From: Styela clava | Taxonomy: Eukaryota | Assembly: GCF_964204865.1 (NCBI RefSeq) | Contig: NC_135250.1 | Coordinates: 13,020,001 to 13,084,000, forward strand | DNA length: 64,000 nucleotides | Direction: 5' to 3' | Program-made: the position numbers | Part shown: in pieces, positions 9,001 through 33,000 of the stretch | How positions within the stretch are numbered: position 1 is the first letter of the stretch | How the letters are laid out: each line of letters starts with the position of its first letter

Positions 9001-12000
9001 GGGTGATCATTACGACATGCTTGCTTAGCTGCGTCTACGTCCACAGAATCAATTTCTGCAAAATACTCGCTCAATGTGTAGATGGGGCCTGTGCCTTTTT
9101 TGATCTTTGAAATCCCACTTAAGTCATGTTATATTACGGAGAAAACAATTTCACTCCGTGGCTTCTCTTCGTGGCGAGTTCCATGGCCTGCAAACAAAAA
9201 TTATACTTGATTGCTGCTATGTGATTTTAAGAATAATAAGATATATATATTATACTTTTGGGACTTTCTCGGGTGTACCTCATATTTTACCGACCCGAAT
9301 GCCAATTTGTACAATCAGAGGAAAGGAATGTCGAACCTAAAAATACTTACGCAAAGAAGAATATATACAGTAGAAAAACCCCGATTAATATGAAAATAAC
9401 TCCCGCTGCTACCACCATGCTCAACACCATAGGCGACTTTATTGCTTGCATAGCTGATTGGTTCGCTGCTGAAGGGTCGGTTGTATCACCTGTGGGACGT
9501 AACACAATGTAGATTGAAGAAAAAATCTGTACACCGTACACTGTACAGCATTGGCTTATCGCGACTAACTCACTTATGCATTCTGGTACAACGTGAGTGA
9601 ATTCACCGCTCTCTTGGCAGGTAATTATGTTAGGTCCTGTCAATACAAATCCTTTTCCACAGTAAAATTCAAGAGAAACACCAAAAGGTACCAATCCCTT
9701 GCTTGAATCGTCTGGGTTACGACATCCTTTCACTGGAAATTTGAAATATAGAAATTCAAATTAAATCATTTCAAGCACGTAGAATGCAGGTGAAATTGTG
9801 TAGCTTTAAAGAAGAACTGTATCATCTTTCGTCGTCAGTTGTGAAAGATAGAAATTTTGATTGTAACAATTCAAAGCAAAAAGTCGCATTACAATATTAT
9901 TGAACATTTGCAGTTCAACCCACATCTCGGCGGTCTTCCATTTTGATTCTGCAGATGCTATTCGATGCACCACAGTTGCAGCTTTGTTCAGAGTATGATT
10001 TTTGGGGAAATTGTGGGTAAAATAATTTGGTTTTCTCGGCGGTGTGCGAATCGTGCTCAGCGTTAAGAATACGCTCGCTACCGCACCTCTGATTACCCTG
10101 CGTAGGATTCAGATTCAGATATTTATTTTCGTCATGCAAAAAACAATGCGCGATATGAAAAATGAATAAATAATATAATGTAACAAAATGTCAAATGGAT
10201 ATCGGCTTGTTGCAGTTGACGCGGAGTCGCGAAAAGACTCATAGAGTCATCTAGTCAGCGACACCTTGTAGCTGAAATTAAGCAGCAAATATAAGAAACG
10301 GGACACTCAATATTACACATTAACTTAATAAATTAACACGATCATACAAAAGACAAAAAAATAATACAAAATAAATAGAACTCAATATTACACATTGGCT
10401 TAATTGGACACAATCATTCGAAAAATGAAAAACAACAAGAAAAAAACCTGAGTAACTACGGGATGCCACAATCCCTGTGGAATGATTAACAAACATGAAA
10501 TAGGCTATAATCATACAAGAAAAAGAGCGGCAAAACATGCGAAATAAACCACGGAATGCCACAATGACTTTGGAATAAAAAAAGATTACTTTTAAATAAA
10601 AAACAAGACAGATAAAAAACATCAACAAATCGAAAATACACCACGGAATGTCATGACGGACGCAACAGCGACATCTATAAAATGGTTATGCCTCGTTGAG
10701 TACGGAGCACAGCGAAATAGCGTTATGACTCAGCGTTCAGTCTACACCAAGATGGCGTACCCAGCAACGGGAGTTTGCTGCTAGGGTTGAATTTGTGGCT
10801 ATTTTCTGTTAAAGCGATTGCTAGTAAATTATTGGCTCTACAGATTAGTGCAGAATGAATTATGTGATCTGCATACTTCGTGTCGATTGCACTGGGCTGA
10901 AAATAGTAAGGAAATACCAGGACACAATATGCAGACAGAAGAAAATGGCAAGTTTCAAAAAGATGGATGGATATAGAAAACAACAGAAGGTAATGTTTTC
11001 AGATCAATGACAACTAGGCCTATAGGCATCAAGATATAGGCTTTTCAGTGCATGTTTGTAAGAATTATAACTACTGGATCGAATGTTATTAGGGAGGTTA
11101 TTCCACAATTTAACACCAACGAATTTGATCGAGTTTTGAGTTCGTTTGGTGCTGAAGCGATTTACATAATATGAGCACCCGACAGAGGAGCGCGTTTCAT
11201 AAGAGTGAACGTTGCTCTGTTTTAAAAAATAGTTGGTGAAAGCGGAAGGGAGTTTTTTGCAGTGATGTTGGTGCATTATTTTCAATACCTCAATTTCATA
11301 AATATCTGCTAATTTAATAATTTTAAGACTATGATAAATAGGACTAAGTCGTGAAATATAACTGGCAGCAGAAATTGCACGAATTGCTCGGTTCTGAATA
11401 ATTTCAATGCGGTGTAATAAGGTTTTATCAGCTGAACCCCAAGCAATTATGCCATACTGGATATGGCTTTGAAATAAGGAATAGTAAATCATGCGTAAGG
11501 TGGTAAGCGATGTGTATCTTCTAAGCTTGTATAGCATTCCAACAGACTTGGATAATTTAACGGCCAGGTTGGACAAGTGAATATCCCACTTCATTTTACT
11601 ATCAATGTATATACCAAGATATTTAAAGGAATGGACATTTTCCAATTTTTTATTATCAATTTGGATTTTCAAAACATTTTTCGATTTGCATTGGTATGGA
11701 GATATTAACATAGATTTTGATTTTTCAATGTTTAGTGTTAATTTATTGGCTTTCATCCAACTTGACACTTTTGCAATTTCAGTATTTACTCTCAACTGAA
11801 GAACTGCACAAGATTTGTCGCTGTCAAGGAGATTAGTATCGTCAGCGAACAATTTGGAAAATAATGAAGAGCAATAAGTTATGTCGTTAATATATACGAG
11901 AAAAAGGAGAGGGCCCAAACAGCTACCTTGAGGAACTCCATGCGTCACCGGTAAGGGAGAAGAACAGTATGATCCCACTTGAACATATTGAGATCTATTA

Positions 12001-30000: not shown

Positions 30001-33000
30001 TGTTTTTCCACATAATTAGATATGCAGTATTTTTGCTCTGGACAATTGCGACCAAATTAGCTTGCTATTTTAAACCATTGACCTAAATTTATTGATATAA
30101 ATTTAACAAGTTTGTGGCCAGAGAATCGTAATGCGACGATGAGAATGATGATAAGCGGTAGGCTTACAAAGATTATCACATTGCCTGTATTAAAAAGAAT
30201 ACACTTAAAAATTAATGCCGAGAACTATCATGATAAGTAGCCTTTTCGTCCAAACTCACAATTTTGGGGTATGAGCTTATGCAGACACGTTTTTGTTATA
30301 AACCGACAGCAATTTTAAAAACGTGCACATGAAAAATACGAAAAAAAAACTTACCAAAGTTGATGAAAAAGACAGCAATGAAGCATAAACATGATATTTC
30401 ATTCATGGCACAAAATTAATCAAATAAATGAAATAGGACTCAAAACAGGTATCAGAAAATTGCAACACATTGGATACATTTACATATTGTACTGCAATGT
30501 AAGTAAACTTGATTAAATATAATAACATAAAGTTTTTACAATCTGAGTGTTCTGATATGCTACTCATTAAAAAGTAAAGTGTAAAATAAAGTTAAAGTTC
30601 ATCCATTTTACCCAATCCATTTTTGACTCAGATGATATATACTATATATATAGGCCTACAGTATATATTAGACGCATAGCTGTTTATTCAGAATTAAATT
30701 TTCAAACGATAATAAGAAATATCCGATTCATACGGAATGTTAAATATAGTTAAAGTTAAAGCTAGATTCCAGCAATCGAGGGCATGGACCCCGCCTAACA
30801 ACATTGATTTAAAATATCATCAAATCGCATTCGTCAGTAATAAAAATTTGTACAGACGGCGTTTGACATATTTCAATGGTACTTCACTAGCGAAAGTATT
30901 TATTTATTACATTTTCGTAGAAAAACCTACTTTCAGCCGCTGTGTAAATATAGACTGTCACAGCCAATGGTACAATTACATAACGTCACGCTAATAACCG
31001 AATTGCGTAAGTCATTTTTAGCAGTTTTGAGAAAAACGTAAAAAACTTGTATTGTTATGCCATTTAGAGTCAATAATTTACCATGGTTCAATTTTTTGAT
31101 CGTAACCGGATTTAAGTTAATTTGTATGACGCAGTTATGTGACGTCATAATGGCGCACTGTGACTTAGGCAGAAATGTGTCTATGGCTTGGGGACATACG
31201 CAATTTTGCAACTTGACTATATGCACCAGTCCTGAAAACCAAAGAATCCAAAAACGAATGTAATTCTCGGTATCTACGATGTCTAATCCCCAAAGTAGCT
31301 AATCTGTTTCAACTACATTATTTTTCATGTTTAAAAATATATATTTCATCAATATAACACGCTCTACACACCCGCCCGAAATAAGACTAATATTAAATAT
31401 AAAGAATAAAACAGCAATGTACCCTTATACAAGAGCCAACCAAGGGGAATTGGACTCAGACAGTGAATATCACAAGTGCGCGCCTTCCTATACTGAAGTA
31501 TAAATTCAAATTTATAAGCGCTAAGCTAGAATCTGAGATGCAAAAACTCGAAAATCCTTCGCAGAGGTTATTTGCCTTTGTGACATCACAATAGTCCTGT
31601 GGTAACAATGATAATTCATTATGACGACACAATTGCACAAATCTGCATGTCATACAAAATCTCCATTTTTATGGGTTTCGGAATTCTTAAAATAAAATTT
31701 GAGTTAACAGACAGGTGCGCAGCATTACACAAATACCTGTTTTATAAAAAACTCAAAACCGCCGAAAATGACTTACGCAATTCGGTTATTAGCCTGACGA
31801 TATGTAGGATGGAATATCTATCACGTACATGGAAAAGTATGAATAAATATCTAACTCGCCGTTCGCCGGATTTAATGCTGCTCGCCAAACGTTGATATTG
31901 TCGCAGGATACAAAAGACCATTCACAAAACTACGTTGGTATCCTAGCAATTTTTGTTTCCTGAAATCCTGAACGAACCGCCTGAAATGCCACCTCTTGGA
32001 TTTGTCACGGAATAGACATATATATATAACTTCTGTAACTAGAAATGCGCCAATGAAAGTTAGTTTTCCGTACCCGATTCCGGTACTTGTCAATATTCGT
32101 CCTATAAGTACATACTCTTACGAATCATTGACGTATATATATGTTTTATTTATCTCTTGAACGATAATATATGAACCTATCATATTGTTTTGATTAAATT
32201 ATAATATTTTTGACTTATATCGCCTTGAAAATAGTCATTTCAGAGTCACTGAGTTTCCATGTGGTTTTGGCAGACAAACATACATGGAAACAATCCCCTA
32301 AGTCAGTGGTTCGCAAAAATTTTGTCTCTCACGGAGCACCTTGAAAAAAACAAATTTATTTGGAGCACTTGGAGCATTTGAATAACATTTGACACCTCAA
32401 TGGAAAGCATTTCAAGCTCGAATTACTACACTACATCAACTTCTTTATTTAAACATTTCAAGTTCGAAAAATGAGCAGTCACGTTAGGTTTACAGATTTC
32501 TATTTGGGGATTCTTGTTCACACATGAATGAAAATCATTGGAGTGGAAAAGTGTGACCAATCAGATTAACCGAGGGAATAAAAAATTCCACTGTTAGCAA
32601 TTATTGGTATAACCTGCAAGAATAAGCTTATTAAAGTTTTATCCATGAATTCTTTTTATGTCGGAATAGGATACTTTTCCTATATGCGCAATAAACCTAC
32701 GCAAGGGCGCAGCCAGGCCGTTCAAAGTCGGAGATTCAAAATTCCCGTATAGCCCCATAGACTCACGAGGGAGAAGAAGCATGTTTGTTACAGTAATTTC
32801 CTTTTTTTGATACCTTAGAAAGGCTCGAGAAAGACTGATGGTTGTTTGGAGGCCAATATTATGATTTTGAATTTAATGATCAGCAACATAGGGTCTGGCA
32901 TATCACTCCCTGACAAGTAAAATGGCACGATTAGCTTGGTAGTTGATCAAATTGTCCTCCACAGTTCATTTATATAAATTCGCTCATCTTTTACAAAACA

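What the first reader, a model, noticed from the sequence alone, without database searches (positions are those of the whole stretch)
9151..30406. Modular CUB-(EGF)15-sushi-TM cell-surface protein built from symmetric cassette exons: candidate recognition or adhesion receptor
Seen: SP-CUB-15 EGF-CCP-TM and a ~12-aa tail with no signalling domain. Every EGF exon and the CCP exon is phase 1-1, so any can be skipped or duplicated without a frameshift. Many repeats carry Ca-binding (D[IV][DN]EC), O-glucose (C-x-S-x-P-C) and O-fucose (CxxxxS/TC) consensus. Pro/Lys hinges ([20 protein letters not shown]) separate blocks. Known: EGF arrays occur in fibropellins (EGF-CUB-EGFn-avidin) and the ascidian egg-coat protein VC70/VC120 (EGFn-ZP), and sushi plus EGF plus TM occurs in Botryllus fester. 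None has this order as far as I recall. Inference: a lineage-specific, length-variable gamete, self/non-self or adhesion molecule. Its tail-to-tail position with a KLHL10 homolog (spermatid-expressed in mouse) is suggestive but may be coincidental.
Basis: partly seen in the sequence, partly recalled or inferred. Interest (0 to 1): 0.68.

Follow-up and report, generated by a model that had tools for sequence, protein, structure and literature searches.

The report
CUB, 15 EGF, sushi membrane protein gene
This is an intact animal gene for a long, rod-like cell-surface protein assembled from very common building blocks (one CUB, fifteen EGF, one sushi domain), an ordinary kind of adhesion or ligand-binding molecule whose exact partner is unknown.

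Summary
On the minus strand, 30406..9151, 21 coding exons (2643 nt, 880 codons plus stop) encode a hydrophobic leader, a CUB domain split over two exons, 15 EGF repeats with one exon each, one sushi/CCP exon, a transmembrane exon and an 11-residue tail exon. All 15 EGF exons and the CCP exon are phase 1-1. Pfam supports 15 of 15 EGF exons, the CCP exon and the C-terminal two thirds of the CUB. The CUB N-terminal exon has motif-level support only.

- Three donors needed for the reading frame are GC, not GT. Two look genuine and the EGF11 donor is weak.
- An apparently intact LINE lies in sense orientation in the intron before the CCP exon.

No ZP, avidin, DSL, lectin or protease exon was found, so the gene is not a fibropellin, VC70, Notch, Delta, Uif or MASP member. 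The EGFs are Notch-type, with O-glucose, O-fucose and O-GlcNAc consensus sites.

Most likely this is a non-signalling adhesion or ligand-presenting stalk protein. The claims of gamete or self/non-self function, lineage specificity and variable length are untested. Phase 1-1 modules are textbook. Interest is low.

The parts
30355..30406 (-). Exon 1: start codon and hydrophobic leader (17 codons plus 1 base), donor TTG|GTAAGT, ends in phase 1
   Evidence: There is an in-frame stop four codons upstream of the ATG. Only this frame is phase-compatible with exon 2. Best 10-residue hydropathy is 3.22.
29770..29942 (-). Exon 2: N-terminal part of the CUB domain (57 codons; phase 1 to 0)
   Evidence: The pattern CGG..SP.Y..C.W occurs once in all six frames of the window. 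Atlas top hits are CUB clusters at 0.88-0.89, a lead only. No Pfam hit and no PDB hit.
27531..27735 (-). Exon 3: C-terminal two thirds of the CUB domain (68 codons; phase 0 to 1); GC donor AAG|GCGAGA
   Evidence: Pfam CUB positions 42-110 of 110, E 1.7e-6. PDB matches are cubilin, MASP-2, neuropilin-1 and C1r. Atlas 0.95. The GC donor ranks 7 of 745.
27077..27223 (-). EGF1 exon (phase 1-1); GC donor TAG|GCATGT
   Evidence: PF00008 33.0 bits. The GC donor ranks 4 of 745.
25973..26101 (-). EGF2 exon (phase 1-1), opens with a Pro/Lys/Glu linker
   Evidence: PF00008 36.5 bits.
25659..25772 (-). EGF3 exon (phase 1-1)
   Evidence: PF00008 33.6 bits.
25165..25284 (-). EGF4 exon (phase 1-1); an alternative in-phase acceptor lies 6 nt downstream (25278)
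   Evidence: PF00008 43.2 bits. Nearest PDB sequences are Notch1, DLL1 and Notch2..
24981..25094 (-). EGF5 exon (phase 1-1); preceded by a 70-nt intron
   Evidence: PF00008 41.5 bits.
23575..23688 (-). EGF6 exon (phase 1-1)
   Evidence: PF00008 40.3 bits. It is 92.5% identical to EGF7 over 134 nt.
22451..22564 (-). EGF7 exon (phase 1-1)
   Evidence: PF00008 40.6 bits.
21511..21624 (-). EGF8 exon (phase 1-1)
   Evidence: PF00008 38.0 bits. It is 79% identical to EGF7 over 124 nt.
21066..21227 (-). EGF9 exon (phase 1-1) with a C-terminal Pro/Lys-rich hinge
   Evidence: PF00008 38.4 bits.
19482..19622 (-). EGF10 exon (phase 1-1), with Lys/Glu-rich flanks
   Evidence: PF00008 37.3 bits.
18942..19067 (-). 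EGF11 exon (phase 1-1 only if the weak GC donor AAG|GCCAGA is used; otherwise the frame runs into a stop at 18928)
   Evidence: PF00008 39.0 bits. There is no GT between the last Cys and the stop. The GC donor ranks 96 of 745.
17773..17886 (-). EGF12 exon (phase 1-1)
   Evidence: PF00008 34.0 bits.
17375..17494 (-). EGF13 exon (phase 1-1), with three residues between Cys4 and Cys5
   Evidence: PF00008 28.4 bits.
16216..16323 (-). EGF14 exon (phase 1-1)
   Evidence: PF00008 40.5 bits.
15505..15645 (-). EGF15 exon (phase 1-1), with a long Cys3-Cys4 loop
   Evidence: PF00008 31.4 bits.
9574..9732 (-). Sushi/CCP exon (phase 1-1), four cysteines
   Evidence: PF00084 36.5 bits, E 6.4e-9. Nearest PDB sequences are CR1, CR2, factor H and MCP..
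9351..9489 (-). Stalk and transmembrane exon (phase 1 to 2), donor TGC|GTAAGT
   Evidence: The best 19-residue hydropathy window scores 2.95. Only 4 of 22491 stop-free minus-strand windows reach 2.9..
9151..9187 (-). Last coding exon: 11-residue cytoplasmic tail and TGA stop (9153-9151); AATAAA lies at 8858 on this strand

Best explanation
This is a real, intact gene of a non-human animal, probably an invertebrate; the species was not identified. It encodes a type I membrane glycoprotein of about 880 residues.

From outside to inside the protein has:
- a cleavable leader;
- one CUB domain as the membrane-distal head;
- a stalk of 15 Notch-type EGF repeats, of which EGF3-9 and EGF13-14 carry calcium-binding-type motifs and Pro/Lys/Glu-rich linkers lie around EGF2 and between EGF9 and EGF10;
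- one membrane-proximal sushi/CCP domain;
- a short stalk, one transmembrane helix and a tail of about 12 residues with no recognisable signalling motif.

Inferred mechanism: the protein does not signal by itself. It holds a CUB (and EGF) binding surface some tens of nanometres above the membrane. It acts by extracellular protein-protein binding, as an adhesion molecule, a matrix tether or a co-receptor/ligand for another surface protein. Folding and surface delivery probably depend on the EGF O-glycosylation enzymes (POGLUT1, POFUT1 and EOGT homologues).

The exon and domain anatomy is shown. Topology, glycosylation, calcium binding and the adhesive or ligand role are inferred. The gene arose by ordinary phase 1-1 exon shuffling and tandem EGF-exon duplication.
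For: - Twenty-one phase-compatible exons on one strand sum to a multiple of three.
- Pfam hits exon by exon: 15 of 15 EGF, CUB positions 42-110, Sushi.
- All 15 EGF exons keep six cysteines.
- Of 121 minus-strand ORFs of at least 38 aa between 8.6 and 33.6 kb outside the LINE, only these 17 match Pfam at E<=0.01, so no other domain type is hidden.
- The EGF4 exon is closest to Notch1, DLL1 and Notch2 EGFs. The CUB exon is closest to cubilin, MASP-2, neuropilin-1 and C1r. The CCP exon is closest to complement-regulator CCPs.
- Glycosylation consensus sites, as defined in PMC8950332 (passages): O-Glc 10 of 15, O-Fuc 6 of 15, O-GlcNAc 10 of 15.
- The leader and TM segments are strongly hydrophobic.
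- Two of the three GC donors have flanks in the top 1% of 745 GC dinucleotides.
- Class 1-1 modules are the standard material of extracellular mosaic proteins (PMC8001218, passages).
Against: - No transcript, homologue or expression evidence was available, so expression and exon usage are unproven.
- Three of 20 donors are GC. EGF11's is weak (rank 96 of 745), and without it the frame stops nine codons after the last cysteine.
- The CUB N-terminal exon has no significant Pfam or PDB match on its own.
- Pfam EGF_CA never reaches its cut-off.
- A sense-oriented LINE with two open reading frames lies in the 5772-nt intron before the CCP exon and could interfere with full-length transcripts.
- The function is inferred from domain types alone. 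The same domains serve very different roles in other proteins.
Confidence: 0.6

Rival explanations
1. It is a non-canonical Notch-pathway ligand or modulator. Its Notch-type, O-glycosylated EGF stalk would bind the Notch ectodomain in cis or trans, as DNER, DLK1 or Drosophila Uif do, and so tune signalling without a DSL domain.
For: - The EGF4 exon's best PDB matches are Notch1, DLL1, Notch2 and fly Notch, and DLK1 also appears.
- O-Fuc, O-Glc and O-GlcNAc consensus sites are dense (motifs from PMC8950332).
- Uif, a TM protein with 18 EGF repeats plus CUB and CCP domains, antagonises Notch in cis when overexpressed (PMC3340373, passages).
- The tail is short, as I recall it to be in DLK1 and DNER (recalled).
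Against: - No DSL or MNNL match was found among 121 ORFs.
- Notch-type EGFs and these glycosylation sites occur in many unrelated proteins. The same review says the enzymes modify any EGF with the consensus.
- The Uif effect was described as neomorphic or overexpression-dependent.
- No orthology test was possible.
Confidence: 0.15
2. It is a lineage-specific, polymorphic recognition molecule (gamete, allorecognition or immune) whose number of EGF cassettes varies by exon skipping or copy-number change.
For: - All EGF and CCP exons are phase 1-1, so skipping or duplication keeps the frame.
- EGF6 and EGF7 exons are 92.5% identical although their introns do not align, which suggests recent exchange within the array.
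- GC donors are enriched in alternatively spliced genes (PMC2490688, abstract in the listing).
- EGF-array egg-coat proteins show repeat-number differences between species (HaVC80 against HrVC70; PMC9265791, passages).
Against: - Phase 1-1 symmetry is generic for such modules.
- No polymorphism, isoform, expression or taxon-distribution data were available.
- No ZP domain was found.
- The KLHL neighbour is only shown to be BTB-BACK-Kelch.
- The fester analogy fails on architecture.
Confidence: 0.07
3. It is mainly a secreted or shed matrix component. Either the ectodomain is released by cleavage in the stalk, or transcripts that include EGF11 end at its in-frame stop and give a soluble CUB-EGF1-11 protein (fibropellin-like in function). 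Skipping EGF11 would give the membrane form.
For: - EGF11 has no GT donor, and an in-frame stop followed by further stops lies nine codons after its last cysteine.
- Its only in-phase donor is a weak GC (rank 96 of 745).
- The sense LINE downstream could favour premature termination (inference).
Against: - No polyadenylation signal was looked for or seen next to EGF11.
- EGF12-15, CCP and TM exons are all intact with good splice sites, which argues that the long form is used.
- No avidin-like domain was found.
- There is no evidence of a cleavage site.
Confidence: 0.1
4. It is a decaying or non-functional copy. Three GT-to-GC donor changes and a recent LINE insertion mark a gene on its way to becoming a pseudogene.
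For: - Three of 20 donors are non-GT. At the GC-AG frequency of about 1% that I recall for most animals, this is unexpected (recalled figure).
- An apparently intact LINE lies in sense orientation in an intron.
Against: - There is no frameshift or internal stop in any of the 21 exons.
- All 90 EGF cysteines and the 4 CCP cysteines are kept.
- Two GC donors have excellent flanks.
- Intronic LINEs are common in working genes (general knowledge).
Confidence: 0.08

Closest known systems
Drosophila Uninflatable (Uif)
   Same: A single-pass membrane protein whose ectodomain combines an EGF array (18 repeats) with CUB and CCP domains. It is thought to act by extracellular binding (adhesion, Notch antagonism) (PMC3340373, passages).
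   Different: Uif is much larger and also has CLECT, FA58C and HYR domains, three CUB and eight CCP domains. None of the extra domain types was found here. Orthology was not tested.
DNER / DLK1-type EGF-only membrane proteins (architecture recalled, not from a call)
   Same: Leader, run of Notch-type EGFs, one TM, short tail, no DSL domain. A DLK1 EGF is among the PDB matches of the EGF4 exon.
   Different: They lack the N-terminal CUB and the membrane-proximal CCP and have fewer EGFs (recalled).
Sea-urchin fibropellins
   Same: A CUB domain combined with a long EGF array in an invertebrate extracellular protein.
   Different: As I recall them, fibropellins are secreted and end in an avidin-like domain. 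Here there is a CCP, a TM helix and a tail, and no avidin match.
Ascidian vitelline-coat EGF-array proteins HrVC120/HrVC70 and CiVC57
   Same: Long EGF arrays (12 and 24 repeats), one repeat per unit, with repeat-number change between species (PMC9265791, passages).
   Different: They carry a C-terminal ZP domain, and CiVC57 also a von Willebrand factor domain. They have no CUB or CCP. No ZP match was found here.
C1r / C1s / MASP and cubilin CUB-EGF modules
   Same: The same three module types (CUB, EGF, CCP). The CUB exon's best PDB matches are cubilin, MASP-2 and C1r.
   Different: Those are CUB-EGF-CUB-CCP-CCP-protease or EGF8-CUB27 proteins without a TM (recalled). No protease domain was found here, and there is only one CUB.
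Botryllus fester
   Same: A membrane protein with one SCR/sushi domain and cassette-like exons that are alternatively spliced (PMC3549757, passages).
   Different: fester has three predicted TM segments and no EGF repeats are described (0 occurrences of 'EGF'). Here there are 15 EGFs, a CUB and one TM.

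Membership tests
EGF-like domain array (Pfam PF00008) | Six-cysteine EGF fold matched above the family cut-off | tested here: met
   15 of 15 exons score 28.4-43.2 bits against a cut-off of 21.5. Each has six Cys.
Calcium-binding EGF (Pfam PF07645; cbEGF consensus) | N-terminal D/N-x-D/N-E/Q motif plus D/N and Y/F between Cys3 and Cys4; Pfam cut-off 27 bits | tested here: inconclusive
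   The motif is at the exon start in 7 of 15 (plus 2 with IDDC), and C3-x-[DN]-x4-[YF]-x-C4 is in 10 of 15. EGF_CA reaches at best 23.0 bits or 25.3 bits, below the cut-off. The cbEGF consensus itself is recalled.
CUB domain (Pfam PF00431) | Match to the whole 110-position profile | tested here: inconclusive
   Positions 42-110 are matched by exon 3 above the cut-off (28.8 against 21.4 bits). Positions 1-41 should come from exon 2, which has no Pfam or PDB match by itself. It shows only the CGG..SP.Y..C.W pattern (1 hit in six frames) and Atlas leads at 0.88-0.89. The joined domain was not searched.
Sushi/CCP/SCR (Pfam PF00084) | Four-cysteine module matched above the cut-off | tested here: met
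   36.5 bits against 20.7, profile positions 18-56 of 56. There are four Cys in the 52-residue exon. A Phe stands where I recall a conserved Trp. The fold of the exon alone was too poor to use (pLDDT 45.8).
Type I single-pass membrane protein | N-terminal signal peptide and one C-terminal TM helix | tested here: inconclusive
   Tested by hydropathy only. The leader's best 10-residue window scores 3.22 and the TM 19-residue window scores 2.95. No signal-peptide or topology predictor was available.
Fibropellin | C-terminal avidin-like domain; secreted (recalled definition) | tested here: not met
   No avidin match among 121 minus-strand ORFs at E<=0.01. A TM exon is present.
VC70/VC120/CiVC57 egg-coat proteins | ZP domain after the EGF array (PMC9265791) | tested here: not met
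   No ZP match.
Notch receptors and DSL ligands | LNR/NOD/ANK modules (receptor) or MNNL/DSL (ligand) (recalled definition) | tested here: not met
   None of these matched. Only EGF-type, CUB and Sushi families were found.
Uninflatable (Uif) | CLECT, FA58C and HYR domains with 3 CUB, 8 CCP and 18 EGF (PMC3340373) | tested here: not met
   No CLECT, FA58C or HYR match. There is one CUB and one CCP.
C1r/C1s/MASP | C-terminal trypsin-like protease after CUB-EGF-CUB-CCP-CCP (recalled definition) | tested here: not met
   No trypsin match.
Botryllus fester | SCR domain with three predicted TM segments, 11 exons, no EGF described (PMC3549757) | tested here: not met
   Here there are 15 EGF exons, a CUB and a single TM exon.
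Any named orthologue group of the whole protein | Full-length similarity and the same architecture in other species | not testable with these tools
The Atlas calls on single exons returned only generic CUB clusters.
KLHL10 (the neighbour) | Orthology to KLHL10 rather than to another BTB-BACK-Kelch protein | not testable with these tools
   BTB, BACK and Kelch exons lie on the plus strand at 1616-8316. No orthology test was possible.

The most novel reading that the evidence does not exclude
The gene is a lineage-restricted recognition receptor whose output is diversified at the EGF array. Weak GC donors at EGF1 and EGF11 and in-phase tandem acceptors would let cassettes be skipped. EGF11 would act as a switch between a soluble CUB-EGF1-11 form and the membrane form. 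Exon-limited exchange, as between EGF6 and EGF7, would keep reshaping the array. Together these would give individual- or tissue-specific isoform repertoires, as in Botryllus fester, used in gamete, allo- or pathogen recognition.
Probability: 0.08. Interest if true: 0.6.

Novelty: new member of a known kind. Interest (0 to 1): 0.2.

Why it matters
The locus is a clean textbook example of a mosaic extracellular protein built from class 1-1 modules, and it is useful for annotating this genome. It would matter more if transcripts showed regulated cassette use or a secreted/membrane switch, or if population data showed variation in repeat number. In that case it would be a tractable invertebrate recognition or Notch-modulating molecule. 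The three GC donors in one gene are a small practical warning: GT-only gene finders would break this model.

Tried and rejected
- Folding the CCP exon alone gave a mean pLDDT of 45.8 and pTM of 0.25. It was unusable, so no fold search was run.
- Pfam at E<=10 and PDB at E<=10 on the CUB N-terminal exon gave nothing.
- The Atlas on the two CUB exons returned only generic CUB clusters and no architecture or taxon lead.
- Rfam (0 matches) and tRNA scan (0 genes) gave no clue to the organism.
- The idea of two separate genes split at EGF11 was rejected. No ATG-hydrophobic-phase-1-donor exon exists in the EGF11-EGF12 intron (0 candidates), while the same scan finds the real exon 1.
- GT-only alternatives for the three GC donors were rejected. 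The available GT sites are out of phase with every candidate acceptor of the next exon. The single in-phase exception lies 30 codons past the CUB end and has poor GTTACT flanks.
- Tandem-repeat and intron comparison showed no unit-level (exon plus intron) duplication.
- Literature searches for a described SP-CUB-EGFn-CCP-TM protein found none. Ci-sushi led nowhere; it is annotated p-selectin-like. One search was mis-sent with seven terms and repeated with six.
- I did not model the neighbouring genes' splice sites to learn how common GC donors are in this genome.

Full report
**Scope and limits.** The window has no N, 30-38% G+C and a CpG observed/expected ratio of 0.90. I do not take it for human. 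It carries a LINE whose first ORF has a baculovirus-FP-type domain. Its introns are compact and the gene architecture is one I do not know from human (the last point is recalled). The species was not identified: Rfam gave 0 matches and the tRNA scan gave 0 genes. The joined protein was never built, searched or folded. Orthology, taxonomic spread and an architecture search therefore stayed unchecked. No supplementary files were consulted.

- Exon 1 (30406-30355) encodes 17 hydrophobic-rich residues and ends at a TTG|GTAAGT donor in phase 1. An in-frame stop lies four codons upstream of the ATG.
- Exons 2 and 3 (29942-29770 and 27735-27531) carry the CUB domain, split by a phase-0 intron.
- Fifteen EGF exons follow, then a CCP exon (9732-9574).
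- A stalk and transmembrane exon follows (9489-9351, ending in phase 2 at TGC|GTAAGT).
- The last exon (9187-9151) encodes 11 residues and the stop.

Every EGF exon and the CCP exon starts with two and ends with one extra base (phase 1-1). The CUB pair as a whole is also 1-1. The exon lengths add up to 2643 nt, or 881 codons with the stop.

Pfam, exon by exon:
- EGF (PF00008) is above its cut-off for 15 of 15 exons (28.4-43.2 bits against 21.5).
- hEGF is above its cut-off for 7 of 15.
- Exon 3 matches CUB positions 42-110 of 110 (E 1.7e-6).
- The CCP exon matches Sushi (E 6.4e-9).

**Is anything missing from the model?** I scanned all 121 stop-to-stop minus-strand ORFs of at least 38 residues between 8.6 and 33.6 kb, leaving out those inside the LINE. 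Only 17 matched Pfam at E<=0.01: the 15 EGF, the CUB and the Sushi ORFs. The other 104 matched nothing. No ZP, avidin, DSL, lectin, Ig, FN3 or protease exon of that size is hidden in the locus. Shorter exons could be missed.

1. Three donors needed to keep the frame are GC rather than GT: exon 3 (AAG|GCGAGA), EGF1 (TAG|GCATGT) and EGF11 (AAG|GCCAGA). The nearby GT sites are out of phase with every candidate acceptor of the following exon. I scored the flanks with a matrix made from the gene's own 17 GT donors. The first two rank 7th and 4th among all 745 GC dinucleotides of the gene, so they look like true GC-AG introns. The EGF11 site ranks only 96th.
2. EGF11 has no GT at all between its last cysteine and an in-frame stop nine codons later. 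A scan of the EGF11-EGF12 intron found no leader-like first exon (0 candidates, while the same scan recovers the real exon 1). The locus is therefore one gene, not two.
3. The CUB N-terminal exon has no Pfam match at E<=10 and no PDB match at E<=10 by itself. Its support is threefold. The pattern CGG..SP.Y..C.W occurs once in the six frames of the window. The exon sits, phase-compatible, in front of the exon that starts at CUB profile position 42. Atlas leads to CUB clusters score 0.88-0.89, below the tool's 0.9 line.
4. Pfam's calcium-binding EGF model never reaches its cut-off of 27 bits (best 23.0 and 25.3). Calcium binding therefore rests on motifs.
5. Leader and TM segment rest on hydropathy. 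The TM 19-residue window scores 2.95, and only 4 of 22491 stop-free windows on this strand reach 2.9.

**What kind of EGFs?** The EGF4 exon's nearest solved sequences are Notch1, DLL1, Notch2 and fly Notch, then EDIL3, a mussel foot protein, DLK1 and factor IX. I used the consensus sites quoted in a Notch glycosylation review (PMC8950332, passages read). Counts per exon:
- C1-x-S-x-(P/A)-C2 (O-glucose): 10 of 15.
- C2-x4-(S/T)-C3 (O-fucose): 6 of 15.
- C5-x-x-G-x-(S/T)-G-x-x-C6 (O-GlcNAc): 10 of 15.
- N-terminal x-[DN]-E-C at the exon start: EGF3, 4, 6, 7, 8, 13 and 14. Its first acidic or amide residue is encoded by the split codon. EGF5 and EGF9 have IDDC instead.
- C3-x-[DN]-x4-[YF]-x-C4: 10 of 15.

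The Pro/Lys run closes the EGF9 exon and KPEPKAEP opens the EGF2 exon. The same review notes that the glycosyltransferases act on any EGF with the consensus. These sites therefore do not tie the protein to Notch signalling.

**CUB and CCP.** The CUB exon is nearest to cubilin, MASP-2, neuropilin-1 and C1r (10 distinct PDB sequences at E<=0.01). The Atlas gives CUB clusters (0.95). The CCP exon is nearest to CR1, CR2, factor H, MCP and DAF, with E-selectin and CSMD1 further down (59 sequences at E<=0.01). It has four cysteines, with a Phe where I recall a conserved Trp. Folding this exon alone failed (pLDDT 45.8).

**History of the array.** EGF6 and EGF7 exons are 92.5% identical over 134 nt. 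EGF7 and EGF8 are 79% identical and EGF6 and EGF8 77.6%. The similarity stops about 5 to 15 nt outside the exons. The introns, of 826 to 1292 nt, do not align except for one 36-nt piece. Within the 111 in-frame bases EGF6 and EGF7 differ at 7 positions, giving 3 synonymous and 4 non-synonymous codon changes. Near-identity at synonymous sites without intron similarity is best explained by short-tract exchange between neighbouring exons (inference). It shows that the array is not static, but it is not evidence of length polymorphism.

**Context.** On the plus strand, 1616-8316, lie BTB, BACK and Kelch exons. The two genes are tail to tail a few hundred bases apart, with an AATAAA for the minus-strand gene at 8858. 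KLHL10 orthology could not be tested. Upstream of the gene (42-58 kb, minus strand) are long serine-rich ORFs without Pfam matches.

**What it most likely is and does.** The anatomy is that of a type I surface glycoprotein. A CUB head sits on a long Notch-type EGF stalk. The stalk is probably stiffened by calcium in EGF3-9 and EGF13-14 and has flexible Pro/Lys/Glu linkers. A CCP lies next to the membrane, and the tail is too short to signal. I therefore read it as an adhesion, matrix-tethering or ligand-presenting/co-receptor molecule that works by extracellular binding (confidence about 0.6; anatomy shown, function inferred).

Rival readings:
- A non-canonical Notch modulator like Uif, DNER or DLK1 (0.15). 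Uif combines 18 EGFs with CUB and CCP domains and antagonises Notch when overexpressed (PMC3340373, passages).
- A mainly secreted or shed matrix form, possibly through the EGF11 stop (0.10).
- A decaying gene (0.08).

**Comparison with known families.** It is not a fibropellin (no avidin-like domain; the fibropellin architecture is recalled, and the one paper found was not read). It is not a VC70/VC120/CiVC57 protein, since there is no ZP domain; those architectures come from PMC9265791 (passages). It is not a Notch receptor or DSL ligand, not Uif, and not C1r/C1s/MASP. Botryllus fester, as described in PMC3549757 (passages), has one SCR domain and three predicted TM segments, and the paper never mentions EGF. 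CUB, EGF and sushi are shuffled into many lineage-specific proteins, for example the cnidarian Polydom variants (PMC12549020, passages). Extracellular modules are almost always class 1-1, with a phase-1 intron after the signal peptide (PMC8001218, passages). The symmetric exon structure is thus the expected, textbook state. My literature searches did not surface a described protein with exactly this order. This is weak evidence, given that no protein database could be searched.

**Verdict.** This is a new member of a well-known kind, and interest is low (0.2).

Noticed in passing
window 11004-15144, minus strand (inside the 5772-nt intron between EGF15 and the CCP exon): An apparently full-length non-LTR retrotransposon lies in the same orientation as the gene. 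ORF1 is 354 aa with a Baculo_FP_2nd domain (50.7 bits). ORF2 is 987 aa with Exo_endo_phos and RVT_1 (92.3 bits). Both ORFs are open. No other copy is in the window. Ends and target-site duplication were not determined.
   Followed up: partly
window 27530, 27076 and 18941 (minus strand): Three of the gene's 20 donors are GC rather than GT. That is far more than the roughly 1% I recall for animals. Two have top-1% flanks and one is weak. Whether this genome uses GC-AG often was not examined.
   Followed up: partly
window 9490-9573, minus strand: The 84-nt intron between the CCP and TM exons is a multiple of three and has no in-frame stop (the ORF 9347-9760 runs through it). Retaining it would insert 28 residues without a frameshift.
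   Followed up: no
window 25278/25284, 23682/23688, 17883/17886, minus strand: Tandem in-phase acceptors lie 6, 6 and 3 nt apart at EGF4, EGF6 and EGF12. Using the downstream ones at EGF4 and EGF6 would remove the first two residues of the exon.
   Followed up: no
window 21830-21948 and 21969-22088; also 23170-23205: A roughly 120-nt element is duplicated side by side (88% identity) in the EGF7-EGF8 intron. A 36-nt piece of it is in the EGF5-EGF6 intron. It may be a small repeat family.
   Followed up: no
window 17069-17286: A roughly 220-nt stretch matches its own reverse complement at 72% (a palindrome-like inverted repeat) in the EGF13-EGF14 intron. It is possibly a MITE.
   Followed up: no
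window 10110-10290 and 29046-29224: Two short matches (88% over 40 nt and 76% over 82 nt) lie in opposite orientation in two different introns of the gene. They are probably fragments of one dispersed repeat.
   Followed up: no
window 1616-8316, plus strand: A BTB-BACK-Kelch (KLHL-type) gene runs convergent with the finding's gene. Their 3' ends lie within a few hundred bases, and polyadenylation-like hexamers of both strands interleave at 8.2-8.9 kb.
   Followed up: partly
window 41945-58300, minus strand: A series of very long open frames (up to 814 aa), rich in Ser and Thr and with scattered C2H2-like Cys/His pairs, has no Pfam match at E<=0.001. It is probably one large gene of unknown family.
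   Followed up: no
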